Shown here piece by piece: positions 28,301 to 64,000 of a stretch of DNA of 64,000 bases. This stretch comes from Eledone cirrhosa. Taxonomy: Eukaryota. Within the stretch, counting starts at the first letter, position 1; each line of letters opens with the position of its first letter. Location of the stretch: positions 38,068,001-38,132,000 of the forward strand of contig OZ024754.1 of NCBI GenBank assembly GCA_964016885.1, in the 5' to 3' direction. The notes under the pieces are model-generated. The model saw only the letters and a list, made by a program, of their open reading frames with translations. It did not search any database and was not told where the DNA came from. The translations under genes were made by a program, and so were the position numbers.

Positions 28301-31300
28301 CTTTCAAGTTTGGTAAATAAAGTACTAGTCCAGTACTAGGGTTGATTCTTCCTCTATATCTTTCTCTCACTTCCCATCTCTTCTCTAGAAGAAATTGGCA
28401 ACACACCTACAATTCCCCATGGAATGACCAGACCAGACCATAGATGCATTGTTTAGGATTGTCATGAGATATTGAAACAGACTTTTCTATTTTACTTCTC
28501 TTTTCAGTGGCTGTGGTGTTATAATAGAAGGTACAATCCGAGGACGATCTCGACTGGCAATCACAGATAAAGACAAAAATAAGGTGAGTAGTTTATATCT
28601 GAGAGTTCTTCTTGAAGATTTCTTGATATTGGCCTCACAGCATCAAGCGAGTTGTTCTACATCTTTCACTTTTTAATTTATTTCATTTTCTATCTCTATC
28701 TATGGTTTAGTGGTTAGAGCATTGGCCTTGCAATCGAAAGGTTGTGAGTTCAATTCTCAGACTGTGTGATGTGTTGTTTCCTTGAGCAAGACACTTTATT
28801 TCACATTGCTCCAGTTTACTCAGCTGTAGAAATGAGATGATAGGGACTGGGGTCCATATCATTCCACTGTCAAATGGTCGTGGAGGTACCACAGCAAAAA
28901 AGCACCCAGCCCACACTGTAAAGTGGACGTGTAGGCGCCACGGCAAAAAAGTACCCAGCACTCACTATAAATGAGGTTGGTGTTAGGAAGGGCATCCAGC
29001 TGTAGAAATCAAGCCAGAATCAGTTCCCGTCCCACCCTTGCAAGCAGGGAAAAGCGGACGTAAAATGAGATGATGATGTCTATCCAGTCGTTTTTTTTTA
29101 TTTTTATTTTTTTGAGTTTTTTTCGTCTGTCTATGAAAGTAGCTACCAATGCAATTATTTTTCATGCAAACCCACCTAAAACTGCCTCTGGTTCTATAAA
29201 ACAAAACTATCCATTTAAAGGGTTCCTCTTTAAATTGAAATCTTCCAACATACATTTTATATAAGGACCTTTTTGTTATGTTAGAAATACCATCTTAATA
29301 ATTGAAATAATTTTAGTAAATCCCTACAGATTCTTCTTTGATTTTATTCAGATACAGTGTATTTTATCAGAAATAAGGTTAAAAAAGGGTTACATTTTCT
29401 AGGCAGTCTGTCTCTGTGATTCTTGACTCTTATTCTATCTATTTTTCTGTGAGGCTGCTTACATTACTCCCCCAGCCCCACCTGTTTGTCAGTCTACATA
29501 TCTGTTAATGTAAGAATAAAAACATATCTGCATGTATTTAATTTCATTGTGGACTTAGGTCCCATGAAGGCTTATTTCGGTAGTTTCAACTGAAGATTAA
29601 ACCAAGTGGTTTTGTTGTTATGTAACATTACATGAGGATCTTCTTGGCTCTCTCTGACAAAATGTGGAGTGAGTGTAGCTTACTTCACTCTCCCAAGATG
29701 TTGAGTGAGTGTAGCTTACTTCACTCTCCCAAGATGTCGAGTGAGTGTAGCTTACTTCACTCTCCCAAGATGCTGAGTGAGAGTAGCTTACAGATGTTGA
29801 GTGATGGTAGCTTACAGATGCTGAGGGAGAGTAGCTTACAGATGTCGAGTGATGGTAGCTTACAGATGTTGAGTGAGTGTGCTTACTTCACCCTCCCAAG
29901 ATGCTGAGTGAGAGTAGCTTACAGATGTTGAGTGATGGTAGCTTACAGATGCTGAGTGAGAGTAGCTTACAGATGTCGAGTGATGGTAGCTTACAGATGT
30001 TGAGTGAGTGTAGCTTACTTCACTCTCCCAAGATGCTGAGTGAGAGTAGCTTACAGATGTTGAGTGATGGTAGCTTACAGATGCTGAGGGAGAGTAGCTT
30101 ACAGATGTTGAGTGAGAATAGCTTACAGATGTTGAGTGATGGTAGCTTACAGATGTTGAGTGAGAATAGCTTACAGATGTTGAGTGATGGTAGCTTACAG
30201 ATGCTGAGTGAGAGTAGCTTACAGATGTTGAGTGAGAATAGCTTACAGATGTTGAGTGATGGTAGCTTACAGATGCTGAGTGAGAGTAGCTTACAGATGT
30301 CGAGTGATGGTAGCTTACAGATGTCGAGTGATGGTAGCTTACAGATGCTGAGTGAGAGTAGCTTACAGATGTTGAGTGAGAGTAGCTTACAAATGTCGAG
30401 TGATGGTAGCTTACAGATGCTGAGTGAGAGTAGCTTACAGATGTTGAGTGAGAGTAGCTTACAGATGCTGAGTGAGAGTAGCTTACAGATGTCGAGTGAT
30501 GGTAGCTTACAGATGTCGAGTGATGGTAGCTTACAGATGCTGAGTGAGAGTAGCTTACAGATGTTGAGTGAGAGTAGCTTACAAATGTCGAGTGATGGTA
30601 GCTTACAGATGCTGAGTGAGAGTAGCTTACAGATGTTGAGTGAGAGTAGCTTACAGATGTTGAGTGAGAGTAGCTTACAGATGTTGAGTGAGAGTAGCTT
30701 ACAGATGTCGAGTGATGGTAGCTTACAGATGCTGAGTGAGAGTAGCTTACAGATGTTGAGTGGGAGTTGCTTATCTCAGTTTCTCAAGATGTGTGTCTAA
30801 GCACAACTCAGATCCTCACCCGAAATTGTCAAAAAAGCCCTCATGGGGTATAATTTCATTGTGAGACTGAACATATATAATAATAATGAAATTATTGTGT
30901 ACAGTGCTCAGGTGCACTACACCTCATCAAAGATGCATGCATAGTACATAGAATAATGTACAAATGTCAGGAAAATAAACAGTGTACGAGTCATGAAATA
31001 CATGTGTGCATGTGTATGGAGGGGGGGGGGACATCAGGTGTAGTGTTGGCGAATCTCAGGAAGCATGGAAGTTTTAAAGGATGCAGTGTCTCGGCAGCTA
31101 ACAACTGATGCAGGTAGTTTGTTCCATGCTTCAGCAACTCTGAGCGTGGAAAAATGTTTCCGAAAGTCATGGGAGCTGTGCTGTTTTCTGACTTTGTTGG
31201 CATGCCCACGTGTGTTAGACACATGGAAATCAAAACATGGTGCTCAGGGTTGTTGTTGGCAAGACGGGTAATAATTTTGTGGGTGTTTACCAAGTCAGTT

Positions 31301-33973
31301 GCCAGACGTCGGAGCTTCAATGTATCCATGTCCAGGGAAGCAAGGCATTCAGAGTATGGTAGATGCTTGATGGAGGGTATTCGCTTGGTTGCACATCTCT
31401 TAACAGTTTCCAGGAGGTCAATGTTCTGAGCAAGATAGGGGTTAGTCTGTTTATATATTTATTCAAAAGCCACACTTTAGTGTTGGTACTATAATAATTA
31501 TTGTCTTTTTATCTGTCAGCTAATTTAGATAGCCGAATACTGGGACTTGACTGACTGCCTTCTTTTTCATGCCGGTCACCATCAAGACCTCTAGTGTCAT
31601 CAATCTCCAAACTGCATCGCACCTTGGGAAGGAACCCCATGAGGTGAAGCGGCTGATGAAGCGGGGTACTGTTGACAGTTCTCCATGGCAATGCCTTTGT
31701 TGCCATTTTGTCCGTAGGGTGCAGCTGAGATATACCACCTAGACTGATGTCCAGAGTCTGCTACTCCCTCCTTACATTCCTTTACTTTTGCTATTTAATT
31801 ATTTTCCTCCTTTCATTTTCTTTTTTATTGTAAATATCCTATAATCCGATTGAAATATGTTGAATAAAGTTTTGTGTATTATAGATAAGTTATTAAATCT
31901 TCTGAAGTAATTTTGTTTTTGTTTTCTAATTTTTCTCCTACTCTTAACAACAGCAACTCCCTACAATCAAAGCAACTAACCTCCCCAATCCCACTGTCCT
32001 TATTTAAAACACCCCTAATATCAAAATATTAGCACACCCACAATATAAACATCACCAACACATCAACAAACACCACCAACACATCAACAAACACCACCAA
32101 CACATCAACAAACACCACTAACACATCAACAAACACCACCAACACATCAACAAACACCACCAACACATCAACAAACACCACCAACACATCAACAAACACC
32201 ACTAACACATCAACAAACACCACCAACACATCAACAAACACCACTAACACATCAACAAACACCACCAACACATCAACAAACACCACCAACACATCAACAA
32301 ACACCACCAACACATCAACAAACACCACTAACACATCAACAAACACCACCAACACATCAACAAACACCACCAACACATCAACAAACACCACCAACACATC
32401 AACAAACACCACCAACACATCAACAAACACCACTAACACATCAACAAACACCACCAACACATCAACAAACACCACCAACACATCAACAAACACCACCAAC
32501 ACATCAACAAACACCACCAACACATCAACAAACACCACTAACACATCAACAAACACCACCAACACATCAACAAACACCACCAACACATCAACAAACACCA
32601 CCAACACATCAACAAACACCACCAACACATCAACAAACACCACCAACACATCAACAAACACCACCAACACATCAACAAACACCACCAACACATCAACAAA
32701 CACCACTAACACATCAACAAACACCACCAACACATCAACAAACACCACCAACACATCAACAAACACCACCAACACATCAACAAACACCACTAACACATCA
32801 ACAAACACCACCAACACATCAACAAACACCACCAACACATCAACAAACACCACCAACACATCAACAAACACCACCAACACATCAACAAACACCACTAACA
32901 CATCAACAAACACCACCAACACATCAACAAACACCACCAACACATCAACAAACACCACCAACACATCAACAAACACCACCAACACATCAACAAACACCAC
33001 TAACACATCAACAAACACCACCAACACATCAACAAACACCACCAACACATCAACAAACACCACCAACACATCAACAAACACCACCAACACATCAACAAAC
33101 ACCACCAACACATCAACAAACACCACTAACACATCAACAAACACCACCAACACATCAACAAACACCACCAACACATCAACAAACACCACCAACACATCAA
33201 CAAACACCACTAACACATCAACAAACACCACCAACACATCAACAAACACCACCAACACATCAACAAACACCACCAACACATCAACAAACACCACCAACAC
33301 ATCAACAAACACCACCAACACATCAACAAACACCACTAACACATCAACAAACACCACTAACACATCAACAAACACCACCAACACATCAACAAACACCACC
33401 AACACATCAACAAACACCACCAACACATCAACAAACACCACCAACACACCCACCAGCACCACCAACACATCAACCAACACCACCAACCAACACCACCAAC
33501 ACCACCCACCAACACCACCAACACATCAACCAACACCACAAACACCACTAACAAACACCACCAACACATCAACCAACACCACCAACCAACACCACCAACA
33601 CCACCCACCAACACCACCAACACATCAACCAACACCACCAACACCACCAACCAACACCACCAACACCACCCACCAATGCCACCAACACCACTAACAAACA
33701 CCACCAACACTACCCACCAACACCACCAACACCACTAACAAACACCACCAACACACCCACCAACACCACCACAATGACCATTCCTATAAACAATACCTAT
33801 ACCACTTGTACCCAGGCACAAAGTACCATCACTGAGCTGTGGAACTGACCTTTGCTATAATGTCAATGTTATTCTGCTGCTCTTGACATTTTCAATGACA
33901 ATCAGTTGTGGCTTTGTATTTTAAAATTAGTCCAGAAATATTTTTAACTCAACCTTTGGGCACTGAGTGTATA

Positions 33974-34046
<73 letters not shown>

Positions 34047-46036: not shown

Positions 46037-47445
46037 AGCTTGCCCCTGACATCTTAATCCATTTCCCTACGTTTTAAAATGTCATAGCAATGGCTTGCCC
46101 TGACATCTTAATCCATTTCCCTACAACATTTTAAGACGTCATAACAATGGCTTGCCCTGACATCTTAATCCATTTCCCTACAACATTTTAAGACGTCATA
46201 ACAATGGCTTGCCCTGACATCTTAATCCATTTCCCTACAACATTTTAAGACGTCATAGCAGTGGCTTGCCCTGACATCTTAATCCATTTCCCTCCAATGT
46301 TTTAAGACGTCATAACAATGGCTTGCCATGACATCTTAATCCATTTCCCTACAACATTTTAAAATGTCATAACAATGGCTTGCCCTGACATCTTAATCCA
46401 TTTCCCTACAACATTTTAAGACGTCATAACAATGGCTTGCCCTGACATCTTAATCCATTTCCCTACAACATTTTAAAATGTCATAACAATGGCTTGCCCT
46501 GACATCTTAATCCATTTCCCTACAACATTTTAAAATGTCATAACAATGGCTTGCCCTGACATCTTAATCCATTTCCCTACAACATTTTAAGACGTCATAA
46601 CAATGGCTTGCCCTGACATCTTAATCCATTTCCCTCCAATGTTTTAAGACGTCATAGCAGTGGCTTGCCCTGACATCTTAATCCATTTCCCTCCAATGTT
46701 TTAAGACGTCATAACAATGGCTTGCCCTGACATCTTAATCCATTTCCCTCCAATGTTTTAAGACGTCATAACAATGGCTTGCCCTGACATCTTAATCCAT
46801 TTCCCTCCAATGTTTTAAGACGTCATAGCAGTGGCTTGCCCTGACATCTTAATCCATTTCCCTCCAATGTTTTAAGACGTCATAACAATGGCTTGCCCTG
46901 ACATCTTAATCCATTTCCCTCCAATGTTTTAAGAAGTCATAACAATGGCTTGCCCTGACATCTTAATCCATTTCCCTCCAATGTTTTAAGACGTCATAGC
47001 AGTGGCTTGCCCTGACATCTTAATCCATTTCCCTCCAATGTTTTAAGACGTCATAACAATGGCTTGCCCTGACATCTTAATCCATTTACCTCCAATGTTT
47101 TAAGACGTCATAGCAGTGGCTTGCCCTGACATCTTAATCCATTTCCCTCCAATGTTTTAAGACGTCATAACAATGGCTTGCCCTGACATCTTAATCCATT
47201 TACCTCCAATGTTTTAAGACGTCATAGCAGTGGCTTGCCCTGACATCTTAATCCATTTCCCTCCAATGTTTTAAGACGTCATAACAATGGCTTGCCCTGA
47301 CATCTTAATCCATTTCCCTCCAATGTTTTAAGACGTCATAGCAGTGGCTTGCCCTGACATTTTAATCCATTTACCTCCAATGTTTTAAGACGTCATAGCA
47401 GTGGCTTGCCCTGACATCTTAATCCATTTCCCTCCAATGTCATCT
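46037..47445. repeat. 57-bp tandem repeat, about 24-25 copies, between the convergent genes
   Basis: Unit ggcttgccctgacatcttaatccatttccctacaacattttaagacgtcataacaat; period checked at 46092/46149. Confidence 0.98.
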
Positions 47446-48497: not shown

Positions 48498-51400
48498 AAA
48501 TATTAAGCTGATTGCAACCTGTAATTATCAATCAACTGTTAATTAAGTCAGCCAGTAAATTATCCACAAAGCTACTTTTTTTTCAATGATTAATTAATCC
48601 ATTACAATCCAAACGACAAAAGCAAGATGCTTCTTTTTTAAATTTTTTACAAATAAACAATAAGTTTTGACAATAGAGAAAGACTTGTACAGGATTAATA
48701 AACTCCAAAATAAGAGAAGCAGTTTTACAATCAAACAACAATGATCTGAAGTAGTTTTATAATCAAACCCTGAGAAGCTTGTGCTGTATTATGCAATATC
48801 TGCTTTTCTCTTCCTCAAATTTTATCAATCATCCTTCTCTGCAATATATCAGCAATTTTGTCGCATTCCTGACCCCCCCCCCCCCCCCATTTATACAGTG
48901 TCTATATACATTATATATGTAACTCGTGCAGATATATATATATATATCTTACATATACTTATATATTATATGACAAATAAAAGATATTTTTCTTGTTAGT
49001 ATTTTCAATTTTCTTTACTGCTATTTTGTAAAAACTATCCCATTTGTTGATCTTTTTGAATCTTTTGATATGACCATGCAGTTTAAGTACTCCTGACTTG
49101 ATAACTTATGTGATTGGTTAAAAGTTCAACTCATGGTGTGAGCAACTTATGCCTAGAAAGAAAATTAGCTGGTAAAAGAAGCAAAGGGTGACAGCCAAAA
49201 CAATGGCTCGATAATGTCAACTTATGGACTGGACTTGACCTTTGCTCTTTAAACTCTGTTGTTGGTGATCGAACTTTATGGAGAAAAATATCTCGTGTTG
49301 ATGCACAGTCTGCAACAGGCGGAGTGAGCATCTAGAGAGATCCCATCTGTAGATGGATGAAAATTTGGATACTTTACATATTGTCATGAACATTTTTTTC
49401 AAAGTTGAATAATCTTATTATTTGCAACAGTTTAACTGAAGGCACAGTGGAACATGTTTTGTTAGGTAGACTTTTTTCTTTCTTACTGTTTTTTCCCAAG
49501 CCTTGAGGTTCACCAGGTTGCTGCTTATACCAGTTTCATCAGTGTTAAGTGACTGAAAATGCAGTTCCCCTCTTCCCCACCTCCTTCTGGATAGTGGCTA
49601 GGGTGCCATTGTAGGGTTAACTCCTAACTACTGCTGGCACTTATTTTCAGCTGCATGTATGTACTAGAGTAATGTAAAATGAAGTGTTTTGCTCAAGAAT
49701 ATAACATACCACCTTGTTCAGGAATTGAACTCACAACATTATAATCATAAGTCCAACACCCTGACCACTATGCTGTGTACTTTAATAGATAGGTTTACTG
49801 CAACTTACAAACTTTTATAGAGGAAAATTTTCAACTAATGGCTATATAACATTTCTATATCATGATTTCAGTGAGCCATGAGGCTTGGTTAGGGATTTTG
49901 TTCATAATTAAATGGTTGCGAGTTTGGTTCCTGGCACCTCATTAATAAGACACTTTATTTCATGTTACTCCAGTTCACCCAGCTGACAAAAATGGGTTGT
50001 CTAATTCAAAAGGGGCTAGCTTTGACACTGAATCTCTCTGAGAATTATGTTAAAGATTTGCATGTCTGTATAATGCTCAGCCACTTGCATATTAATTTCA
50101 CAAGCAGGCTATTCTGTTGTTCCATTGACTGCAACATTCGTTGGAAGTGATAGAGGTCTGACTAAAAATATCTCACTAATATTTTAGCACTTTATAGAAA
50201 GTTTCTCTGTAATGGTAATAGCAATTGTAAATGTTCCCGAACACATATTCAATTTTCCACATTTTCCACTTCAGTGTGTATCCCAGGTTTTAGAATAGGT
50301 ACACTAGCTGTCCTGGTGTCATGCCAGTCTACCCTGTAAAGTGTTAGTGCTGATGCCACAAAATATGCACCCAGACCACCCTGTAAGGTGCTACAACAAA
50401 AAGCATCCAGTCCACCCTGTAAGGTGGTTGGACTGGTGCCACAACAAAAAGCACCCAGTTCACCTTGTCAAGTGGCAGTGCTTGTGCCACCAAAAAGCTC
50501 TCAAATACACATTTTAAGATGGTTTGGAGGACTCTTCACTTAAGTCAAGGGCATTAACCTTCACAATAATCAGTACACTCTGTAAAATGGTTTGGTGATA
50601 GGAAAGGCATCCAGCCATGGAAGACTCTTCAGTTGTGTCAAAGACATGACAGCCTCCCTAGTGTTGGCACTATGATAAAATGTACATGGTGTACTCTATA
50701 GAGTGTGGGAACATATGTTAGCAAGATGTTATCCATTTCATCCTGCCCTGGTCGATCTGAAAGATCAGTAGCACTGTTTTAACTAACTTAGCCTGTCATG
50801 ACCCTTTCTAACAGAAAGAAGCAGATGTTGAGTGGTGGTGATAACCAAAAGAGTATATATTTTATTCTAAAATTATTCACAATGTTTCGGTGTTAATACA
50901 TTTACATAAAAAGGTTGATCAGTCAATCACTAGATGCATATTTGTTTGCATAACAACAAAGTGCTGCAAAGATAATGGACAAAGCATTTTGTTGGACAAA
51001 TTATTATTTTCAGCTTTAGACACACAGGCAGTAAAAGGAAGTGGGGGAGAGAAGTCGACTTAACTGCTACTTTATTTTATCGACTGCTGAAAGAATGAAA
51101 AGTAAAGTTGACCTTGGTAGGATATGCACTTAGAATCTATAGGATCGGAAAAAATGCTGCAAAGCATTTTATCTGACACTAATGATACTGCCAATCAAAA
51201 ATTAATACTGTGTGTGATAGAAAAACCTCCCATATTTCTCACAGTGAACATGTAAAATAAAGGAGGTATTTCTGCTATACCATGTGGAAGTATATAGATA
51301 ATATATTTGATTAGAAATATGGCTACAGAAGAGTTAAAGCACTTATTATGAAATTTCTTAGATTTTAAAAGTAAAAAAAAAAAATATTTATTACTTAGTA

Positions 51401-51575
51401 AGCATTCATTATAATTATGTATCGATTATAACATTAACAGGAAAAAATCAAACTGCAAGGAAATGATAAGAAAAAACAGAGTTTAATTTGAAAATGTGAA
51501 AGTCCTAAAAGCAGAAAATTGTAATAAGTCAATATTTATAAGTAATAGTTGAGAAAATTGGGTAGATTACCCTTA

Positions 51576-51990: not shown

Positions 51991-52182
51991 TTAATAGTTC
52001 ATTGTAGCTACAAGTAAAAAAAGAATGGTGAAAAGAAGTCCAGTGCTTCCAAAATGCTGAGGACTTCCACTGGGCAAGTATTTCACTTCAGAATTCATAT
52101 TACAATTTTTATATTGGTTACAGTTAATTTGTTGAAAGAATTTGTCGAAACAAGTGTAAACTTCGGTGATGTAGATTACATT
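51991..52182 (-). CDS. RNASET2: RNase T2 last coding exon with hydrophobic C-terminal tail
   Basis: atcttcag| acceptor; EVYTCFDK..INC...C..VKYLP family end, followed by SGSPQHFGSTGLLFTILFLLVATMNY*; TAA at 51993-51991. Confidence 0.92.
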   Translation of the reverse strand, partial: NVIYITEVYTCFDKFFQQINCNQYKNCNMNSEVKYLPSGSPQHFGSTGLLFTILFLLVATMNY

Positions 52183-55100
52183 CTGAAGATATAAAGAAAA
52201 TACATATAGAACACAGCAAGTTCAGGAAACAAGACAGAAAACAGACTAAAACATTTTTCAGAGCAGACAAAGTTAACAGGGAAGTAGGGAAAATATTTTA
52301 TAGAGCAGGAGAGTCATGGGCTCTCTAGAAGTGGGGAAGGGTCAGGAAGTTTTAATCCTTTTGATACCAAACCACCCTTGGTTCTACAATATAAATAATT
52401 TTAAGGGGCTTATATTTAGCTAAAATCTTTCTATCATAATTCTATGTAAGAACCTTTGTTAAGTTATGATCTGAATACCAGTTCAATATTAATTTTCTAC
52501 AAGAAGAGCAATTTTGTAGGGAAGAGAATGGAAAGCAGGGCTGGATTTAATGGGGGAGGGACAAAGGGGGCAATTGCCCTGGGCCTCCTGCAGTGTGTGT
52601 GTGGGGGGGCTCCATTAGTGATGGTCATAGCAATTTATTTATGCCCTCAGCTGGGCTTTTTAGTTTTAGGATGGTTAGAATTTTTGAATTTAATACCTGT
52701 ATGTATAACTTTTCAATTCCAATTACTTGCGCCAAGGTGACTTTGATATGTAAAAGTGTGTGGGGGGGGGGGGGGGGGGGGCTGTGTATTCTAATTTTTC
52801 GTGCATGATCACCCCCCACCCCCACCCCCAAGGTCTAAATCCAACCATGGGGGAAATTTGAGTATATCAACCCAAGTACTTGTCAAGTATATCAACTTTG
52901 GAAGGATTTGCCAATTTGCACTCAGCACAAAGAGCAAGAACTGTTAAGAACTTGTCCAATGTTTGTTACAGACATAATAATGATAATAATAATGAAATAT
53001 TGTGTACAGTGCTCAGGTGCACTACAAATGTAACTCAACTGTATAGAAACAAGATGAAATGAATTCCTAACATCCTGTAATGTATGTATGAACCTGTAAT
53101 TGTTAATGGAATCTTAAAGATACCGTTGTGACATAAAGTGTGTCCTGGATACTTTAAACCTGTCAGAGTCAACCTCCTCGCCAGTTCGGAACACAGCCAA
53201 TTTCTTCCAGAGAAGGAGAGAGAGAGGAAGTGAGAAAGAGATATAGAGGAAGAATTGATCCCAGTAGTGAACTGGTACTTTTTTTTATCAATCTCGAGAG
53301 GATGAAAGGTAAAGTTGACCTTGGCAGAATTTGAACTCAGTTAGTGCAGAGAACGTGAATGAATACCACAAAACATTCTGATATTCTAACAACTCTGTCT
53401 ATTTGTTATATGTAACACCTGTAATGTGTCATGTATGGCAAGTTTGTTAATCAAAATATTTATAGTATAATTACTAGAAGACAGATTGTTATGAAAATTG
53501 TCAGTGTAATTTTTAATCTGAAGCAGTCATAGTGCTATTTTATACTTTTCATGAATGTCTTGCTAATGTGGATTCATGTGGAACAGGACTTTAAGAGTTA
53601 AACACTAGATAACTTTGTTTATTACAGAAGAATCTCTACTTACATCAACCTTGTTACATTTCAGAAGAAACTGGTAATTAGATAAATCCTTCAGAGCTTT
53701 CTGCATGTCAGCCAACTACAAAAAATAATAGCAAAACTCTGAATATCAATAACAAAAACGAGCTGAGAGAAGGCAATGCTGGTATAGACATGTGGTGCAT
53801 ACGGAGGATGAGCCGAAGAGGTGCCAGGGGAAGGAAGCTGAATTAGAGGAAGGCCAAATCAAACCTGGGCAAAGTTGGTGAAAGCAGATATCACAGAGGA
53901 TGTTTGGAGGGAGACTGGGCTAGAAAAGACATATTCGACCCATGTAAACACGGAAAAATAGACATGATGATGATGATGATGATCTGATTATGATGTGATG
54001 GTGATGATGATCTGATTATGATGTGATGATATGTTCATGATGTGATGATATGTTCATGATGATGATGATAATGAAACCCCATATGTGAAGGAGGTACATA
54101 GTCAGTTGAGTCAACATTAACACATTGGTGGCACTTTATTTACCTTTGACAGTGATGACCAAATTGACTCTGGCAACACTATTGATCAAGAGTCATCAAA
54201 ATACTGTGTTATTTAGTGAAGCACAATTATTTTCCCTCCTATACACCAGCAACCCTTGGAATAAATGATTGTTTCTACTTTTGGCACAAGGCCAGCAATT
54301 ACCCAGTGCATTACTGGTACTTTATTTTATCGACCCCGTAAGGATAAAAGGCAAAGTCAACCTCGGCGGGATTTAATAATAATAATAATTGTTTCTACTT
54401 TTGGCACAAGGCCAGCAATTACCCCAGTGTATTACTGGTGCTTTATTTTATAGATCCCGCAAGGATGAAAGGCAAAGTTAACCTCAGCGGGATTTGAACC
54501 ATAATTCTATACTGCAAAGCATGTCTGATGCTTTACCAATACTGCTAAATGACTATGTCAGCTCTGTTTTAACCTGATGTAGAGACAAGAGAGAATACTT
54601 TGACTATGTCAGCTCTGTCACATCCTGATGTAGAGAAACAAGAGGCAGCCTCAACAAGATGTCTGTGTCACTCTGAGACAGCCTCAACAACAGATCTCTA
54701 TGTCACTCTAAGACAGCCTCAACAACAGATCTCTATGTCACTCTAAGACAGCCTCAACAAGATGTCTATGCTACTCTATGACAGCCTCAACAAGATGTCT
54801 ATGCCATCCTGAGGCAGCCTTAACAACAGATCTCTATGTCACTTTATCTCTGGCAGTTTCACATATTTCACTCTCCTAAAGTCAGATGTCAAGACTTAAC
54901 CCTTTTATGCTCAAACCGGCCAGAATTCTCTACCTCTTTCTGTTGAAACTGGTTGTAACTGGTCACTCAAACTGATGTTAAGGTATTGTTCTCAAAATAA
55001 ATACTTTCAAAATCTCATAGATTCGATATTATATGAGATAATTATGTGAGATTTATTCATTTACCATGAAAATACAATAGTATATATAAAATAATGTGAA

Positions 55101-58100
55101 TGCTAAAGGGTTAAGGCAACCATCAATTTGATTCCCAAAGCTTGGTTTTTGTGGGTTGTACAGACAAGTATTACTGAATCAAATCTTTCTTGATCATTGT
55201 GTTAAGTAGTGGGTAGGAACTTGTTTGCCGATATACATATTGATTGGTGATATAGTCTGCTCTGCTGATGTAAGGTATAATACACACGTCATCATCATCA
55301 TTTTTACGCCTGCTTTTCCATGCTTGCATGGGTTGGACGGGTCTTTCTCAGTATGTTATCTCTCTGCTCATCGTGTTCCTTTGTCATCTCCTCTGTGAGT
55401 CTCAGCAATTTGAGGTTAGCTCTCACAACCTCTGCCCAGGTCTTTCTTGGTCTACCTTTACTGGGATTTCCTGGCATTTCTTCACCCAGTGATCATCACC
55501 CATGAGCCTCACATGTCCATACCAATGCAGTCTTCTCTCCTGCACACCACCTCAGCCAGTCCAAGCTCTGCCTTTCTCTCACACTTACATTGCACATCCA
55601 ATGAAGCATGGTAGCTACATTTCTCTCTATTCTACACACTGTAATCTACACACTTTAACAAGAAACCACATGTGTGTGTGTGGTTGAGTATGTGTATATA
55701 TGTGTGACATCTGAATATGTATCCTCCACCTTCAACTAACTTACTCTCTGCCGCTTGGTCCCGGCCAACAGGATGGAGAATACATATTAGCTATTACTTT
55801 CTTTTTTTTTGGCTCCTCCTTTCTCATGACATAAACAACTCACTGTTATTTATATTTTTATTTTATCTTTAAATTTAGCGCCTCCTATTTTAATGGCTTA
55901 ATAATAGTGTGATCACATTCAATTATCAATATGATATTGTCATTCACATGTTTCTTCCTTAGGAGACTTGCTTCTACTAAAATTTATATATATTTTAAAA
56001 TATCTCTGAATATATAAATGAGATGTGCAAAATATATGTTGAGGGAAGTCTTTGATTTTATGTTTGGAACTAAGTATATAGATGTACTGGACTGGAATCC
56101 TTGGTTCACCGAGAATCCTTGGTTCCCATGCTCTACTGAGTGAATTTTATTAAACCACCAGCACTAGGGAGGTTGTCACATCTTTGACATCACTGAAGAG
56201 TCCTCCCAACTCTTTGTTTGGCTCATTTACTATGGCTGGATGCCCTTCCTGTTACCAACGACTTTATAAAGTATACTAAGCCTTCATGTTAATGTATTTA
56301 TGTATATAATTAGACATATATTTGGGAATATTTGGGTCGATAAAATAAAGTACCAGTAACATACTGAGGTTGATTTAATTGACTTTCCCTTCGCCACAAA
56401 ATTGTTGGCCTAGTGCCTAAATCAGAAACCATTTAAATCTATTAAAACCACTAACCTTGTAAAGTTTATGATATGATGGGACAATATTTTTCTTCTTGAG
56501 AGCACTGCAATAGAATAAAATAGTAATATTAACAATTAGATCTTATCATCATCACCACCACCACCATTTAACATCTATTTTCCATGTTAGCATGGATTAG
56601 ATAAGTTGCCTAGTTACACTGCCCCTGTTAATGCCAACCACATTACAGTGAAGTGGGTACTTTTATTATTGCACTAAAAATGACCACCTGATAAGGTAGA
56701 CTGGGTGCTTTTTCATTGTTGTACCAGCACGACAACCCAGTGTTGACTGGTTGCTTTTTGTCATGTCACCAGCATGACCTCCATATACAACTGAATGGGA
56801 ACTTTTTGTTGTGTCACCAGCACGACCACCATATAGGGTGGACATTGTGCTTTTTGCCATGTTACCAGCATTACCACTTTATAGGGTGGACTGGATGCTT
56901 TTTGCCATGTTACCAACATGACTACTTTATAGGGTGGACTTGGTGCTTTTTTGCCATATTACCAATATGACTACTTTATAAGGTAGATACAAAATCGGGA
57001 TTCATTCAAAGGTGGATATTGGTGAATAAACAGAGACACTTACACCATTTTTCTCACTTATCAAACTTTATTTTTTTTGTGAAATTTAGTTTCTATATGC
57101 TTTCTTATTTAATCTTTTTTTTTAATTCACAAAGAGTCTAGGATGTAAAGAATTTAATTTTTTTTTTTTCACATACTTAAATATGTTGTATTTCTTTTGT
57201 AACTGAAGAACTTTTTCAAAATATTGAAGTTGGTTGAAGTTACTACATCTACCATGTTTTTCCCACTCATGTTTCCTGGAAAATAGAAGTTGAATTTGAA
57301 AACCCAATGCAGTGATTAAAAATATTGATCTTGAAAAGAAAACAGTCAAAAGAAAGACACATTATGCCTAAAAAAAAACAATAAAACAATAGGATGGTGA
57401 ATGGCAATGCTAAAATACCTTATATCATAGGTCTACTTGATAATACATTTGCTGGGGCTAAACAACAATATCATCTTAAGGTACAGACATTTCGTTAGTC
57501 CGGAGAACCAACTTGTTGAACCTGTGCTCATGTAAATGCATAAAAAAATGTTTACTCACAAAATGAAATAAAGAAAATAAGGAAAAAAAGGTGAGTTCTT
57601 AACAGGGGCAGGTAATGATCTAATTGGTCATTCATTTTCTATGTGCTTCTTGCACTCTTGCTCTTCTTTCTTTGCAGACCTCTTGGCTACCTTGTAAGTC
57701 TGATGAGCTGACTCCTCTGCTACTATACCCCATGCTCTCTGTCATTCTCTGAACCTCATTCTTTTCTCATCAATTCATTTTCTAACTACGTCTGACAAGT
57801 GACTTGGTAAACACCCACAAAATTATTAACCATCTTTCCAACAACAATCCTGAGGACCTTTTTGATTTCCACGTGTCTAACACGCGTGGGCATGCCTACA
57901 AAGTCAGAAAACAGCACAGTTCCCATGACTTTCGGAAACATTTTTTCATGTTCAGAGTTGATGAAGCATGGAACAAACTATCTGCATCAGTTGTTAGCTG
58001 TCGAGACACTGCATCCTTTAAAACCTCCATGTTTCCTGAAATTCGCCAACACTATACCTGATAGTCTCCCTCCATACACATGCACACTGTTCATTTTCCT

Positions 58101-61100
58101 GACATTTGTACATTATTCTATGTACTATACATACACCTTTGATGAGTTGTAGTGCACCTGAACACTGTACATAATAATTTCATTATTATCATTATTATTA
58201 TTATTATGGCCCTTGCCATTCTGAGTTCAAATCCCGCTGAGGTTAACTTTGCCTTTCATCCTTACGTGGTCAATAAAATAAAGTACCAGTAATGCACTGG
58301 GATAATTGCTGGCCTTGTGCCAAAAGTAGAAACAATTATTATTATACCATCTTGTTTACAAATGTCTTGGTGGTCCTTTTTGTATATCCACAGATATCAC
58401 CAACAGCTCTTAACAAACCACCTTCCAAAGACTTCTAAGAACTTGCAAGTTTGATTTGTGTCATATTTTAACATACTCAGTTTCTCTCAGAGTTTTTCTG
58501 ACTCATTTAACCTCTACACCTTCAATCTTGGTTGATAATTCCTCTGTTGAGCTCTCCTTCCAACTTTACTTCCTCAGGTCAGTTAAATAGATGAGGCTGT
58601 GTAACAACCTGAAATCAGACAACAATGGGCAAGAGACTGTTAACTTACCAGAAATTTTTATTAGGTTGAGAATAGCTTGGCCATTTAGCATCCATTTCCT
58701 TTCTTATGCTCTGATAATTAGAATGAAAATTTCAAAGAAAAGTTGTTGTTATTTTTTTTTTTACTGAAGGAATAAATATCAACAAAATAGTCCCTACAGA
58801 TGATGAGCAGGAACCAGTGGAGGAGATCAGATGCTACTGGTTAGATATAGTTGGGGTTTCCTCAACAAGGTTCCATGGCTCTGGTACTGTAGATTTGGGT
58901 GGAGGATGGAAACTCCATTATTCAGGTGTGGTGCCAGAAAAGACTGCCAGAATGTGTTATGGAGTGATTACCATTGGGAGAGAGGATTTGTCTCTTGAAA
59001 CTTTGGCTGAAAGAAAGGTCTGTGTAGATGATGCAAGTTTATGTGCCAAACAGAGAGCTCGAGTATAGATCCTTCCTTGATGAAGTCACTGCAGTGTTAG
59101 ATGTAGCTAGACTGAGTCATATATCCAATGCACATGTTGGAACCAACTACCTGACATGGAAAGGAGTGATTAGAAGGAACAGCAATCCCGATCTAACAGA
59201 GAAGCCATATTAGACTTCTGTTCTAGTAATCGGCTCTCTATTATGAACACTTTCTTTCAGCACAAAGACATCCATAAATGCACGATATAAGGGGAATCAG
59301 AGACGAGACAGAGATCAATAACTAATCTTTTTTTGCATGGCAGTGAGACCTGGGCATTGTGTGCAGAGGATATATGCAGACTAGAGAGGAACGAAGCTTG
59401 CATGCTCCGCTGGATGTGTAATAGTAATATACGTGAACGGCAAAGCATAAACGAACTAAGGAAAAAATTAGAAATAAGAGGGATCAGATGTTGTTTACTC
59501 GAGAGAAGGCTACGTTGGTATGGTCACGTGATGCGCATGAAAGACGATAGCTGTATAACAAAGTGCAGGGCAATAAAGATAGACGGTAGCCACGGAATAG
59601 GCAGACCCAGAAAAACCTGGGACGAGCTGATAAATTCTGACCTCACACACTTACACCTCTCCAAGACAATGTCACTGGACCGAGACCTTTGGCGGTACTC
59701 AGTAATAGAGAAGACCCGCCTTACCTAAACACAAAGTAAAACCTACTACAGTCAGTAGGCATCTCTAACAAAATACACCCCCGTCCCACCACCCCCACCC
59801 CATTCACACTGCCCCCTTCTATGTAAAGTTATGTTGGTGCCACAACATCCAGGCCGAAACAAATGAGATCGTGTAGGTGTCACGACAAAAAAACACACAG
59901 TCCACGCTGTAATGTGGCCGTGTAGGCAACACGGTAAAAACCTCCCAGCCCCACACTGTAAATGTGGTTGGTGTTAGGAAGGGCATCCAGCTGTAGAAAA
60001 CCCGCCAGACAGTCCTATGCGAGCAATGACAACCACTCTTGCCTCAAGTGGGAAAATGCCCGTCCAAACCCATGCAAGCGTGGAACAGGGACGTTAAACG
60101 TTGATGATGATGTCTCTGATCTCTTTGATTCTGTGTTGGATGTTCATGTTAAGAGAGGGATGAGCTGTCAACTGATCACCATCTAGTTATATGTAACCTG
60201 AGACAACCTAAAGCCCGCAAAACTCGCAGGTCCAGTTTGACCTACAGGATCGTGTGGGAAGCGCTGGCAGGTAAGGAAGTAAGGAATAGTAGCTGTGGTT
60301 TCTTAGATTTAAGCACCTCTAGAGGAAGTTTTTTTTCTTCAAATTCTATAAAACTTTTCCATGTGAAATGTCATGCATATGAATAAGTGGAATGTAGAAT
60401 GTGTGAGATGTGGAATATGTGGGATATGTGTAGAATGTAGAATGTTTCAAATGTACATGTATGAATGGAATGTAGAATCTGTGGGATGTAGAATGAGTGA
60501 GTTGTGGAATGTGTGAGATGTGTTGACTGTAGAATCTGTGGGATGTAAAATGTGTGAGTTGTGGAATGTGTAGGGTGTAGAATGTATTAAATGTAGAATA
60601 TGTGTAACATGAAATGTGTAGAATTTGGAATTTGTGGAATGTATAAAACATGTAATGTGGGTAAAGTAGAATTTTAAAACTGTGAAATGTCTAATGTGTG
60701 GAATGTGTATGCATGTATTCAACACATACACATGATTATGATTAACAAAATCTGCCTCAGGTGAGCTAAATAAGGGTCAATCTGTCTTACCCATGAATGA
60801 TGGATGCTAATCGATGAGGTTGATGAGATATTTATGTGTGTATATATATATATATGAAGTGTGTATGTAATGTATGATATGTGTATGTATATTACATATA
60901 TGGTATGTATATATATATATATGAAGTGTGTATGTAATGTATGATATGTGTATGTATATTACATATATGGTATGTATATATATATATGAAGTGTGTCTGT
61001 AATGTATGATATGTGTATGTATATTACATATATGGTATGTATATATATATATGAAGTGTGTCTGTAATGTATGATATGTGTATGTATATTACATATATGG

Positions 61101-62062
61101 TATGTATATATATATATGAAGTGTGTATGTAATGTATGATATGTGTATGTATATTACATATATGGTATATATATATATATGTGTATATCATTATCATTAT
61201 ATGTGCCTTTACGATCTGAGTTCAAATCCTGCATAGGTTAACTTTGCCTTTAATCCTTACGGGGTTGACAAAATAAAGTACCAGTAATGCACTGGGATAA
61301 TTGCTGGCCTTGTGCCAAAATTAGAAACAATTATCATTTTATGCGCATGCATATTATGCTGGTACCACAAAACATCCAGCCCTCACTGGAAAGTGATCGT
61401 GTAGGAGTCACAACAAAAAGCACCCAGCCCACACTATAAAGTGGATGTATAAAAGACATAGCAAAAAGCACCCAGCACACACTGTAAATGTGGTTGGCAC
61501 TATGAAGGGCATTCAACTGTAGAAAATCAGCCAGAAACTCTCCTATATGAGCCAACCCAACCCAACCCAACTTGCCTCTAAATGGGCGAAACCTGTCTAA
61601 CCCATGCTAGCATGGAAGATAGACATTAATTGATGATGATGATGATATATCGTCTCTGATGTTGTGAAGCAGCATCATCTGGCTCTTACTGGCCATGTCA
61701 CTCACCATGATGAACCTGCTGGAAGATTGCTCACCTGGACTCTGGATGCAAAGAGATGAGTTGACCGGCCATATATTTTATTGAAATCAATCATTGAGAT
61801 GGACAAGTCCTCAAAGGAACAGATCTACTTTATCAATGCCTCACCATCCCCCTCAAGGAATTGAGAGGAAAACGTAGAAGAGGAAGAGAAGAATAAGTTT
61901 ATCAAAAATATTCTCAGTTTGTAACATATTCTTTGTAGCCATTAGAAAATTGTTAAGGTTAATTTTAATGAGAAAATTTGAATGATTACCTCTAATTTAT
62001 TAATTTCAAAAGGAAAACTTCTTTTACAGTTTTGAGGACTTGAACCTGAAGTTTCAGAAGGC
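51991..62062 (-). CDS. RNASET2: Ribonuclease T2 family protein, 5'-partial: complement(join(51991..52182,53644..53715,56456..56504,57177..57275,58649..58710,61990..62062))
   Basis: Six GT-AG exons in frame: (W)PSETSGSSPQNCKRSFPFEINKLE SIRKEMDAKWPSYSQPNKNFW KHEWEKHGRCSNFNQLQYFEKVLQLQKKYNIFN ALKKKNIVPSYHKLYK LADMQKALKDLSNYQFLLKCNKVD NVIYITEVYTCFDKFFQQINCNQYKNCNMNSEVKYLPSGSPQHFGSTGLLFTILFLLVATMNY*. It has the CAS II motif FWxHEWxKHGxC and T2-like cysteines. The CAS I (HGLWP) exon was not found in the window. Family assignment is firm; one-to-one orthology to RNASET2 is untested. Confidence 0.92.
52536..52849. mobile_element. hAT-like MITE
   Basis: Imperfect TIRs cagggctggattta / taaatccaaccatg with G/C-run subtermini. 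Confidence 0.5.
53644..53715 (-). CDS. RNASET2: RNase T2 exon (LADMQKAL...KCNKVD)
   Basis: ttttttgtag| acceptor, GAT|gtaagt donor; 72 nt. Confidence 0.9.
54264..54500 (-). mobile_element. Two tandem truncated family A SINEs
   Basis: ttgtttctacttttggcacaaggccagcaattacccagtg occurs twice. Confidence 0.85.
54645..54843. repeat. ~32-35-bp tandem repeat (cagcctcaacaa..gatctctatgtcactctaaga), about 6 copies
   Basis: Seen directly. Confidence 0.85.
55289..55630 (-). mobile_element. Degraded RTE 3' fragment
   Basis: RRLHWYGHVR and RPRKTWAEVV remnants, (GAT)n tail. Confidence 0.7.
56456..56504 (-). CDS. RNASET2: RNase T2 exon (NALKKKNIVPSYHKLYK)
   Basis: attgcag| acceptor, AAG|gttagt donor; 49 nt; L...IxP motif. 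Confidence 0.88.
57177..57275 (-). CDS. RNASET2: RNase T2 catalytic CAS II exon (KHEWEKHGRC...YNIF)
   Basis: ttttccag| acceptor, AA|gtatgt donor; 99 nt; inside ORF 57122..57349. Confidence 0.95.
57782..58207 (+). mobile_element. CR1-clade LINE 3' part
   Basis: ORF 57804..58061 TRGHAYKVRK..RVDEAWNKL..EIRQHYT*, (ATT)n tail. Confidence 0.88.
58649..58710 (-). CDS. RNASET2: RNase T2 exon (SIRKEMDAKWPS...NFW)
   Basis: attatcag| acceptor, TG|gtaagt donor; 62 nt; M..xWP motif. Confidence 0.92.
58780..60290 (+). mobile_element. Old RTE APE-endonuclease remnant interrupted by a younger RTE 3' fragment (59333-60110)
   Basis: LDIVGVSSTR, QVYVPN, NAHVG and IMNTFFQHK before the insert; VLDVHVKRG..STDHHLV after it. 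Confidence 0.75.
60840..61180. repeat. ~65-bp AT-rich tandem repeat, 5 copies
   Basis: gaagtgtgt recurs at about 60856, 60923, 60988, 61053 and 61118. Confidence 0.9.
61990..62062 (-). CDS. RNASET2: RNase T2 exon (W|PSETSG...NKLE)
   Basis: ttgttttag|G CCT acceptor completes the Trp of HGLWP; GAG|gtaatc donor; 73 nt. Confidence 0.88.
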
Positions 62063-62554
62063 CTAAAACAAAATATAATAAATAGTAAAATATTAACTGT
62101 ATTGGCTTACTTTCCGGGCCCAAATAATGGGTTTAAATTCTTATAAGTGGGGGTTGGAATAAATGAGGCGGGATGGGTCAGTAATTGAATAGTGTATGTT
62201 CGTAAACGTGGGATTTTTTGTAATGTTCTTTTTTTTTTTTTATCATAATGTAAAACAAAATTATTAGATTCTCCAGCTGCTGTATCAATATGAAACACTT
62301 TAACAGTAAACTGGAGCAATGTAAAATAAAGTGTCAAGGAAACAACACATCACCCGGTCTGAGAATTGAACTCACAACCTTTTGATTGCAAGCCCAATGC
62401 TCTAACCACTAAGCCATGTGCCTCCATAATGTATATATGTTTATGCAATTGAAGAAAGCTGGTTGGTTGAAAATCTTAACAGATGTGATGCACTCCATGG
62501 TTTTTGTTCATTCGTATATCCCTATTTATTTTGTTATACTATATATGTGAATGA

Positions 62555-62850
62555 TCAAGCATAGACGAGTTGAGAGAGAAACTGTGTATAAACGGGATAG
62601 AAGACTGCATTGGTATGGACATGTGATGCGCATGGAGAATGACCACTGGGTGAAGAAGTGCCAAGTAAACCCAGTGGAAGCAAGACCACGAAAAACATGA
62701 GCGGAGGTGGTGAGAGCAGACCTCAGATTGCTGAAGCTCACGGAGGAGATGACAAAGGACTGTGACGAATGGAGAGATGCCGTGCTTAATAAGACCGGTC
62801 CCACCTTTGCAAGCAAGGAAAAGCGGACGTAAAATGATGATGATGATTAT
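62555..62850 (+). mobile_element. RTE 3' fragment
   Basis: RRLHWYGHVMR, RPRK, tail gaaaagcggacgtaaaa(tga)n. Confidence 0.8.
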
Positions 62851-62891
62851 GTATATGTATATATACACACAGTATATATATATATATAAAT

Positions 62892-63072
62892 AATTGTTTC
62901 TTCTTTTGGCACAAGGCCTGCAACTACCCAGTGCATTACTGGTACTTTATTTTATTGACCCCGTAAGGATGAAAGCCAAAGTTAACCTCGGTGGGATTTG
63001 AACTCAGAATGGCAAGGGCCGTAACTCTATGCGTCGCGTCCGACCCTCTACTGATACTGCCAATCCACCACC
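62892..63072 (-). mobile_element. Family A SINE whose 5' end runs into a tandem array
   Basis: Family A body followed by ctactgatactgccaatccacc. Confidence 0.85.
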
Positions 63073-63537
63073 ATTACTGCCAATCCACCGCCATATTGCC
63101 AATCCACCGCCATACTGCCAATCCACCGCCATATTGCCAATCCACCACCATACTGCCAATCCACCGCCATACTGCCAATCCACCGCCATACTGCCAATCC
63201 ACCGCCATACTGCCAATCCACCACCATTACTGCCAATCCACCGCCATATTGCCAATCCACCACCATACTGCCAATCCACCGCCATACTGCCAATCCACCG
63301 CCATATTGCCAATCCACCGCCATACTGCCAATCCACCACCATACTGCCAATCCACCGCCATACTGCCAATCCACCGCCATTACTGCCAATCCACCGCCAT
63401 ACTGCCAATCCACCGCCATACTGCCAATCCACCGCCATACTGCCAATCCACCGCCATATTGCCAATCCACCGCCATATTGCCAATCCACCGCCATACTGC
63501 CAATCCACTGCCAATCCACCGCCATACTGCCAATCCA
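63054..63537. repeat. 19-bp minisatellite (catactgccaatccaccgc), about 25 copies, derived from the SINE head
   Basis: The unit is the reverse complement of the SINE 5' end gcggtggattggcagtat (compare 27962-27979). Confidence 0.95.
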
Positions 63538-63799
63538 TATATACATAATGCAGTGATGACATAGTGCTGGTGTCACGACAAGAGCATGCTGTCCACCCTG
63601 TATGGTAGTAGTGCTGGAATCACGATAGAATATTCCTAGTACACAGTGTAAAGTAGTTGGTATTAGGGAGGGCATTCAGCTGCAGAAACCAAGCCAAGCA
63701 ATGTGTACGAGTAGAACCTAGTCACCTAACTGGTCTAGCCTCAGCATGTGATGCATGTAACCACGAAAAATAGATATTGAATAGTGATGATGATGATGA

Positions 63800-63840
<41 letters not shown>

Positions 63841-64000
63841 AACCAGTAAGACCCCGAATTAGCCGTCGAAACGGCTTGAGCTCAGCTGTCGGGGTCTTAC
63901 TGGTTCCTATTACCCACTCTACTACCTCAAGTATTGAGTACTTTGGTGCGTTATGGTCCACCTGGTTCCTTACCACATTTCCTTCGTTATATATATATAT

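What the first reader, a model, noticed from the sequence alone, without database searches (positions are those of the whole stretch)
51991..52071. RNase T2 with a GPI-anchor-like C-terminal tail: candidate cell-surface ribonuclease
Seen: the family's terminal V-x-Y-x-P motif (VKYLP) is followed by 26 extra residues, S-G-S, a polar spacer (PQHFGSTG), a hydrophobic run (LLFTILFLLVA) and TMNY-stop, with no charged cytosolic tail. The ~181 visible residues have no N-x-S/T sequon and are basic (25 K/R versus 14 D/E). Established: small omega residues, a ~8-residue spacer and a terminal hydrophobic stretch define GPI signals, while typical animal RNase T2 enzymes are soluble, N-glycosylated lysosomal or secreted proteins. 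Inference: this may be a membrane-tethered ecto-RNase, possibly a lineage-specific paralogue.
Basis: partly seen in the sequence, partly recalled or inferred. Interest (0 to 1): 0.75.

Follow-up and report, generated by a model that had tools for sequence, protein, structure and literature searches.

The report
Octopus RNase T2 with GPI-type tail
Octopuses keep a second, neighbouring copy of the RNA-degrading enzyme RNase T2 whose conserved tail is predicted to be swapped for a lipid (GPI) anchor, so this normally soluble enzyme would likely sit on the outside of cells.

Summary
The tail at 52071-51991 ends an intact nine-exon, 238-residue RNase T2 gene (gene A). Its first exon, 8 kb outside the window, encodes a signal-peptide-like stretch, and both active-site motifs are intact. 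A tail-less paralogue (gene B; three N-glycan sites, neutral pI) lies 47 kb upstream on the same strand. Orthologues of A in Octopus bimaculoides, O. sinensis, O. vulgaris and Argonauta hians (43-51% identical in the three measured) all keep small residues right after the last strand, a short spacer and an uncharged hydrophobic end, though the tail's letters differ. One full-length orthologue sits on a 1,169-base contig, so it is almost certainly a spliced transcript. The layout fits published GPI-signal rules except that there is no unstructured linker before the omega site. No GPI predictor, expression data or experiment was available. Best reading: an octopod GPI-anchored ecto-RNase (about 70%). 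Lack of N-glycan sites is particular to this species. Hydrophobic tails also occur in tick, mite and spider RNases T2. My searches found no paper on a GPI-anchored RNase T2. Verdict: new variant of a known family, moderate interest.

The parts
51991..52071 (-). Predicted GPI-attachment signal: omega S213 (52071-52069), omega+1/+2 G-S, spacer 216-223, hydrophobic run L224-A234 (52038-52006), TMNY, stop
   Evidence: rules from PMC2571997 and PMC7125958; same layout in four other octopods
51991..52182 (-). Gene A exon 9 (last coding exon, residues 176-238): last cysteines, final V-K-Y strand and the tail
   Evidence: contigs of three runs agree letter for letter
53644..53715 (-). Gene A exon 8 (72 nt, phase 0/0)
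   Evidence: picked from 5 candidates; aligns with orthologues
56456..56504 (-). Gene A exon 7 (49 nt)
57177..57275 (-). Gene A exon 6 (99 nt): second active-site motif KHEWEKHGRC (H104, E105, K108, H109)
   Evidence: PF00445 35.5 bits against a cut-off of 26; PDB RNase T2 hits
58649..58710 (-). Gene A exon 5 (62 nt)
61990..62062 (-). Gene A exon 4 (73 nt), the first exon inside the window
62063..64000 (-). In-window part of gene A intron 3. Beyond the window edge lie exon 3 (G000:C14:38133870-38133928; first active-site motif TIHGL, H54), exon 2 (38136587-38136644), exon 1 (38140375-38140427; ATG and signal-peptide-like stretch) and the tail-less tandem paralogue gene B (38187722-38210859; nine exons, same intron phases, 243 residues, 3 sequons, core pI about 6.7), all on the minus strand
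51387..51392 (-). First AATAAA below the stop, followed by a T run: candidate polyadenylation signal about 600 nt into the 3' UTR (an ATTAAA lies at 51487)
   Evidence: not tested against RNA

Best explanation
Gene A is an intact RNase T2 paralogue, kept across octopods beside a tail-less copy, whose conserved C-terminal tail is likely a GPI-attachment signal, so the enzyme would be lipid-anchored on the outer cell surface and would likely cut RNA there. Shown: nine-exon open frame, both active-site motifs, RNase T2 fold (model of the O. bimaculoides orthologue), tandem tail-less paralogue, tail layout kept in five species, basic core in five species. Inferred: the signal peptide is removed in the ER; GPI transamidase cuts after S213 and replaces the last 25 residues with GPI; the basic enzyme (core pI 9.2-9.7) faces outward, probably on an apical epithelial membrane such as gut or digestive gland, and breaks down extracellular RNA, while gene B does the usual lysosomal RNA recycling. 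Tissue and substrate are guesses.
For: Omega S, omega+2 S, polar spacer (mean hydropathy -1.06), hydrophobic end from omega+10, propeptide of 25 residues, no charged residue after the run. This matches PMC2571997 and PMC7125958. The same layout is in O. bimaculoides, O. sinensis, O. vulgaris and Argonauta (S-G-S, or S-S-G-N; propeptide 26-30), with core identity of only 50, 51 and 43% in the three measured. A hand-made rule set passed 7 of 146 RNase T2 rows: 6 are A-type octopod rows (two from one species), 1 is a mite. Best 19-residue hydropathy is 1.5-2.0 in A-type tails against 3.1 in two relatives that look like true transmembrane forms. The hydrophobic moment is 0.2-0.7 against 1.1-1.4 in the amphipathic insect and sea-spider tails. 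A-type rows form one clade with the tail cut off (98/91). P0005, a complete 244-residue ORF with signal peptide and tail on a 1,169-base contig, can hardly be genomic for a gene whose counterpart here spans 20 kb. In 4 of 4 named species the A and B proteins share the same longest-contig length, and the Argonauta accessions are consecutive.
Against: No trained predictor (NetGPI, PredGPI, SignalP) was run, and my rule's thresholds were set after seeing the target. The roughly 11-residue unstructured linker before omega that PMC2571997 describes is missing: in the orthologue model the last strand is 212-214 and omega is 218. The hydrophobic run in gene A is 11-15 residues, shorter than the 'about 20' of PMC7125958. 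One O. vulgaris model (P0124) leaves the last exon early and has no tail, so tail-less isoforms may exist. One O. vulgaris B model (P0127) has a hydrophobic stretch of its own, with charges, which fails the rule. Nothing here shows localisation, activity at extracellular pH or tissue.
Confidence: 0.7

Rival explanations
1. The tail stays on as a short C-terminal membrane anchor (minimal transmembrane or in-plane helix), holding the enzyme on ER, endosome or lysosome membranes, in the way pestivirus Erns is held by its C-terminal helix.
For: AlphaFold models residues 234-243 of the orthologue as a helix, at low confidence (pLDDT about 54). Other invertebrate RNases T2 carry apparent transmembrane or amphipathic tails. 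The linker before omega is missing.
Against: No cytosolic residues or basic flank in any of the five species. Best 19-residue hydropathy is 1.5-2.0 against 3.1, and the hydrophobic moment is low. The small-residue triplet is kept at a fixed place, which a plain anchor would not need.
Confidence: 0.14
2. GPI is added, or the tail is simply cut off, but the working form is soluble: the enzyme is shed or secreted (digestive juice, mucus, saliva) and the tail is only a sorting or transit device.
For: PMC7125958 notes that GPI proteins can be shed. The studied family members are secretory-pathway enzymes (PMC4136927). A tail-less model exists in O. vulgaris (P0124).
Against: P0124 also loses the last cysteine and the last strand, so it may not fold. 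Nothing here shows release. This rival shares most steps with the best explanation and differs only in the final location.
Confidence: 0.12
3. The tail is a neutral read-through into T-rich DNA and has no function.
For: T-rich DNA readily codes for F, L and I; 1.3% of random extensions pass a relaxed test. The tail letters differ between species.
Against: The same layout persists in 5 of 5 species whose cores are about half identical; random extensions pass the strict test 0.17% of the time.
Confidence: 0.04

Closest known systems
Animal RNase T2 (Pfam PF00445): human RNASET2 (PDB 3T0O), squid RNase T2 Q7M439 (P0015), 'ribonuclease Oy-like' proteins, Drosophila RNase X25
   Same: Signal peptide, both active-site motifs, cysteine pattern and fold (Foldseek of the orthologue model: 3T0O E 5.8e-15, TM 0.71/0.87). 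Gene B groups with the squid and cuttlefish enzymes (98/92).
   Different: The other mollusc, coral and deuterostome rows end within about 3-15 residues of the Y-x-P motif, without a long hydrophobic run. Cephalopod B-type cores are mostly neutral or acidic (pI 6.0-6.7 in 5 of 6, 8.3 in one). Gene A and its orthologues are basic (9.2-9.7 in 5 of 5) and carry the GPI-like tail.
Database models 'ribonuclease DdI(-like)' of Octopus bimaculoides (XP_014790239.1), O. sinensis (XP_029643117.1) and Argonauta hians (GAB1601466.1), and CAI9730645.1 of O. vulgaris
   Same: These are the orthologues of gene A: one clade, same tail layout.
   Different: Named by automatic similarity only. None of five accessions searched (O. 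bimaculoides and O. sinensis entries) occurs in the paper library. They carry 1-2 sequons; gene A has none.
Pestivirus Erns (RNase T2 fold, C-terminal membrane anchor)
   Same: An RNase held on membranes by its C-terminus (abstract openings of PMC4536213 and PMC3937272; weak fold match to 4DW5, E 0.013).
   Different: Erns uses a long amphipathic helix lying in the membrane plane; the octopod tail is short, evenly hydrophobic and preceded by a GPI-type omega triplet.
GPI-anchored ecto-hydrolases such as 5'-nucleotidase/CD73 and alkaline phosphatase (recalled examples)
   Same: Proposed way of working: a hydrolase shown on the cell surface through GPI. PMC7125958 lists hydrolytic enzymes among GPI proteins.
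   Different: Unrelated folds (recalled). The word 'ribonuclease' does not occur in that review's text.

Membership tests
RNase T2 (PF00445) | Profile match over the curated cut-off | tested here: met
   Exon 6 alone scores 35.5 bits against 26; orthologues carry PF00445
RNase T2 (PF00445) | First active-site His (HGLWP) and second-site H-E-W-x-K-H | tested here: met
   Both motifs intact in gene A and in 4 of 4 orthologues
RNase T2 (PF00445) | RNase T2 alpha/beta fold | tested here: met
   Model of orthologue P0005 (pLDDT 85.6); the 19 matches at E<=0.001 are RNase T2-type structures by their titles. Gene A itself was not folded.
RNase T2 (PF00445) | Endoribonuclease activity | not testable with these tools
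   Needs an assay
GPI-anchored proteins | N-terminal ER signal peptide | tested here: met
   Exon 1: M-K plus hydrophobic core, 9-residue hydropathy 3.71; alike in three full-length orthologues. By eye and hydropathy only.
GPI-anchored proteins | Small omega and omega+2 residues | tested here: met
   S-G-S in this genome and three Octopus species; S-S-G or S-G-N in Argonauta
GPI-anchored proteins | Polar spacer omega+3 to +9, hydrophobic tail from omega+10 to the end, 20-30 residue propeptide, no cytosolic tail | tested here: met
   Propeptide 25 here, 26-30 in orthologues; no charges in the tail. The run is on the short side, and the Argonauta spacer is mildly hydrophobic.
GPI-anchored proteins | Unstructured linker of about 11 residues before omega | tested here: not met
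   In the orthologue model the last strand (212-214) ends 4 residues before omega (218). PMC2571997 gives this as a rough trait; GPI proteins without it are recalled, not checked.
GPI-anchored proteins | Positive call by a trained predictor | not testable with these tools
   No NetGPI, PredGPI or big-PI available
GPI-anchored proteins | Tail replaced by GPI; PI-PLC release from the surface | not testable with these tools
   Needs an experiment
Type I single-pass membrane proteins | About 20-residue hydrophobic helix followed by a cytosolic, usually basic, tail | tested here: not met
   Best 19-residue hydropathy 1.73 and 4 uncharged residues after the run
Erns-type amphipathic anchor | Long helix with a strong hydrophobic moment | tested here: not met
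   Moment 0.63 over 11 residues against 1.1-1.4 in amphipathic insect and sea-spider tails; Erns itself was not scored

The most novel reading that the evidence does not exclude
Octopods carry a dedicated GPI-anchored cell-surface ribonuclease, a kind of ecto-enzyme not found in my literature searches. It polices extracellular RNA at epithelial surfaces, and ticks and mites arrived at or inherited the same solution, making surface-tethered RNase T2 a recurring, overlooked feature of invertebrates.
Probability: 0.5. Interest if true: 0.7.

Novelty: new variant of a known kind. Interest (0 to 1): 0.5.

Why it matters
Animal RNase T2 is described as a secretory-pathway enzyme with a housekeeping role in RNA recycling (PMC4136927). 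A GPI-anchored copy would be an ecto-RNase: it would set how long extracellular RNA (dietary, viral, host-derived, or experimentally applied for RNAi or mRNA delivery) survives at octopus cell surfaces. The tandem pair gives a clean case of a duplicate changing address, and charge, while keeping its active site. The claim can be tested cheaply in cultured cells. Interest is held to the middle because the anchor is predicted, the function unknown, and hydrophobic tails on invertebrate RNases T2 are not unique to octopods.

Tried and rejected
1) Expression in this species: the one run search (a 7-kb query, which can hide RNA holders) listed no RNA holder; this is no evidence either way.
2) Word-indexed protein searches with single exons found nothing. 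The HMMER search with the two last exons found 4 hits, 2 of them unrelated repeat proteins (P0001, P0003), dropped from all counts.
3) I first thought the S-G-S-P...G-S segment was inherited from gene B, whose end reads F-G-S-P-I-K-S-G-S-D-V here. Other B-type proteins end Y-P-P plus a different short tail, so I dropped this.
4) An ancient octopod-plus-tick subfamily: the 38-row careful tree with the tail removed joined them at 96/92, but the 124-row quick tree did not. AU tests did not reject A joined with cephalopod B (p 0.13) or with octopod B (p 0.10 careful, 0.16 quick). The age of the duplication is unresolved. For the 124-row tree I left out 24 of 148 rows: the 2 unrelated hits and 22 near-duplicate or alternative-isoform rows, among them P0124 and P0127.
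5) No squid or cuttlefish A-type protein appeared among the 120 listed of 216 hits; weak, because the search is word-limited.
6) No third RNase T2 copy turned up in three searches of the genome; these are lower bounds and missed even known exons.
7) The Atlas search with P0004 only returned RNase T2 clusters.
8) Literature: 'RNase T2'+'GPI-anchor' gave 7 papers, none on this by title or abstract opening; the one read says its enzyme has no GPI site. 'ribonuclease T2'+'octopus' 0; 'RNASET2'+'octopus' 0; accessions 0; ecto-RNase and GPI-anchored-RNase phrases 1 unrelated paper; tick+T2+GPI 3 papers, 2 listed, unrelated. Searches listed nothing on this gene in the rows shown. Subscription journals are mostly not held, and no supplements were searched; octopus proteome or single-cell tables could bear on tissue.

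Full report
Observation. The minus strand at 52182-51991 is a last exon with a pyrimidine-rich AG acceptor. It encodes the closing cysteines and V-K-Y-L-P of an RNase T2, then 26 residues: S-G-S, PQHFGSTG, LLFTILFLLVA, TMNY, stop. Contigs from three public runs of one sample cover the exon without a difference or gap. They may be the assembly's own sample, so this only argues against an assembly error. Random read-through of local DNA gives such a tail at 458 of 263,972 minus-strand starts under a strict test and 3,451 under a relaxed one.

The gene. The window is G000:C14:38068001-38132000 of a 3.0-Gb genome. With 200 kb of neighbouring sequence the gene closes as nine exons over 20 kb, all introns GT-AG, giving 238 residues without a break. 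Exon 1 encodes a signal-peptide-like start. Exons 3 and 6 hold the two active-site motifs, intact (H54; H104, E105, K108, H109; the roles of single residues are recalled, while PMC4136927 marks the histidines of both motifs as catalytic). Exon 6 alone passes Pfam's cut-off for PF00445. Exon 8 was chosen from five candidates by splice signals and aligns with the orthologues. A candidate poly(A) signal lies about 600 nt below the stop.

The neighbour. The family search found a second hit 60 kb beyond the window. It is a complete paralogue, gene B, on the same strand, ending 47 kb upstream of gene A's start, with the same eight intron phases. It is 36% identical over the core, has three sequons and a near-neutral core, and ends 11 residues after its Y-L-P with no hydrophobic run. 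In the careful tree it groups with octopod, squid and cuttlefish enzymes (98/92), so it is the conventional copy.

Conservation. A profile of the two last exons retrieved O. bimaculoides XP_014790239.1 and Argonauta GAB1601467.1. A full-length search then gave 216 relatives, 120 listed. A-type orthologues exist in O. bimaculoides, O. sinensis, O. vulgaris and A. hians; core identity to gene A is 50% (O. bimaculoides), 51% (O. sinensis) and 43% (Argonauta). All end in small residues directly after the last strand, a short spacer and an uncharged hydrophobic end, with little letter-by-letter identity beyond the triplet. That is what selection for a signal, not a sequence, looks like. All five A-type cores are basic (pI 9.2-9.7); five of six cephalopod B-type cores are at pI 6.0-6.7 and one at 8.3. 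The orthologues have one or two sequons, so their absence is particular to this species. In all four named species A and B report the same longest contig, and the Argonauta accessions are consecutive; adjacency itself is shown only in G000. P0005 is a whole 244-residue ORF, signal peptide to tail, on a 1,169-base contig; I infer it is a spliced transcript. Against a single form: O. vulgaris has a second model, P0124, that leaves the last exon early and has no tail, and a B model, P0127, with a charged hydrophobic extension.

What kind of tail. PMC2571997 describes a low-structure linker before omega, small residues at omega-1 to omega+2, a spacer to omega+9 and a hydrophobic tail from omega+10. 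PMC7125958 gives a 20-30 residue signal with about 10 hydrophilic and about 20 hydrophobic residues, and small omega and omega+2. Gene A has one candidate under my coding of these rules, S213, with a 25-residue propeptide. Seven of 146 rows pass: six A-type octopod rows and one mite. The thresholds were set after seeing the target, and no trained predictor was available. The linker criterion is not met: the AlphaFold model of P0005 (pLDDT 85.6; tail about 54) ends its last strand four residues before omega. A transmembrane reading fits worse (best 19-residue hydropathy 1.5-2.0 against 3.1 in two relatives with long anchors and basic tails), as does an amphipathic helix (moment 0.2-0.7 against 1.1-1.4). 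The fold search returned RNase T2 structures, human RNASET2 among them.

How it likely works. Shown: gene structure, active-site motifs, paralogue, conservation. Inferred: entry into the ER, exchange of the tail for GPI after S213, display on the outer membrane face, and cleavage of extracellular RNA by a basic enzyme, with gene B left to lysosomal turnover. An apical digestive or barrier epithelium is my guess, by analogy with other GPI-anchored hydrolases (recalled); no expression data were obtained. I put this at 0.7, a retained peptide anchor at 0.14, a shed or secreted working form at 0.12 and neutral read-through at 0.04.

Origin. A-type rows form one clade with the tail columns removed (98/91; 99), so the duplication predates the split of Argonauta, Octopus and this genome's lineage. 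It may be older: A lies outside the cephalopod B clade in all four trees, but AU tests do not reject a cephalopod (p 0.13) or octopod (p 0.10) origin. A join with tailed tick and mite enzymes (96/92) vanished with more taxa, so I do not rely on it. Lineage-specific RNase T2 duplication in molluscs is known (PMC4136927, section 14).

Novelty. The family, mollusc duplications and one membrane-anchored relative (pestivirus Erns) are known, and the orthologues are in databases under automatic names. My ten searches showed no paper on a GPI-anchored RNase T2 or on this gene; most subscription journals are not covered. Hydrophobic tails are not unique to octopods: 14 of 123 rows have one, and the 124-row tree needs 7 changes of that label, at least 4 forced by strong branches. 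An earlier scan note (e1-9970910) reports a transmembrane-anchored RNase T2 in another animal; it agrees but is not independent support.

What I saw of each paper: PMC2571997, PMC7125958, PMC6726743, PMC2720953 and PMC11310096, passages found by term; PMC4136927, passages and section 14; the Erns papers, search listing with abstract openings; no supplements.

Verdict. Real, conserved, and most likely a GPI-anchored ecto-RNase paralogue of octopods; new variant of a known kind; interest 0.5.

Noticed in passing
P0053, P0050, P0051, P0040, P0056, P0096, P0115 (ticks and a mite): All 7 rows of the tick and mite clade end in a spacer plus hydrophobic stretch. The Galendromus protein passes my GPI rule; the tick ones fail it and several end in basic residues. 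They may be a second anchored lineage.
   Followed up: partly
P0016 (Parasteatoda), P0017, P0057 (unnamed): RNases T2 with a full-length hydrophobic helix followed by a basic tail, like type I membrane proteins.
   Followed up: partly
P0110, P0086, P0092, P0101, P0079, P0093, P0106, P0038 (beetles, a stick insect, a sea spider, unnamed rows): A conserved C-terminal segment with a high hydrophobic moment (1.1-1.4 in the three scored), suggesting an in-plane amphipathic helix reminiscent of the Erns anchor.
   Followed up: partly
Gene B last exon, L008:5722-5880 minus: Gene B ends Y-L-P-F-G-S-P here but Y-P-P in other cephalopods. Another reading frame below this point looks by eye like the long C-terminal extension of O. 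sinensis model P0007, hinting at a frame change near the 3' end.
   Followed up: no
P0124 (O. vulgaris CAI9730644.1); window 52103: This model leaves the last exon at the final cysteine codon. The matching GT in this genome is a weak donor (4 of 9 consensus letters).
   Followed up: partly
window 11764-14176, plus strand: Overlapping open frames in a GC-rich block (56% at 12001-14000) with reverse-transcriptase-like words (recalled), probably a broken LINE-type element.
   Followed up: no
window 29768-30773, 32047-33771, 46038-47440, 63054-63513: Long tandem arrays with periods 24, 21, 57 and 19; the 21-mer array explains the extreme strand skew at 32001-34000.
   Followed up: no
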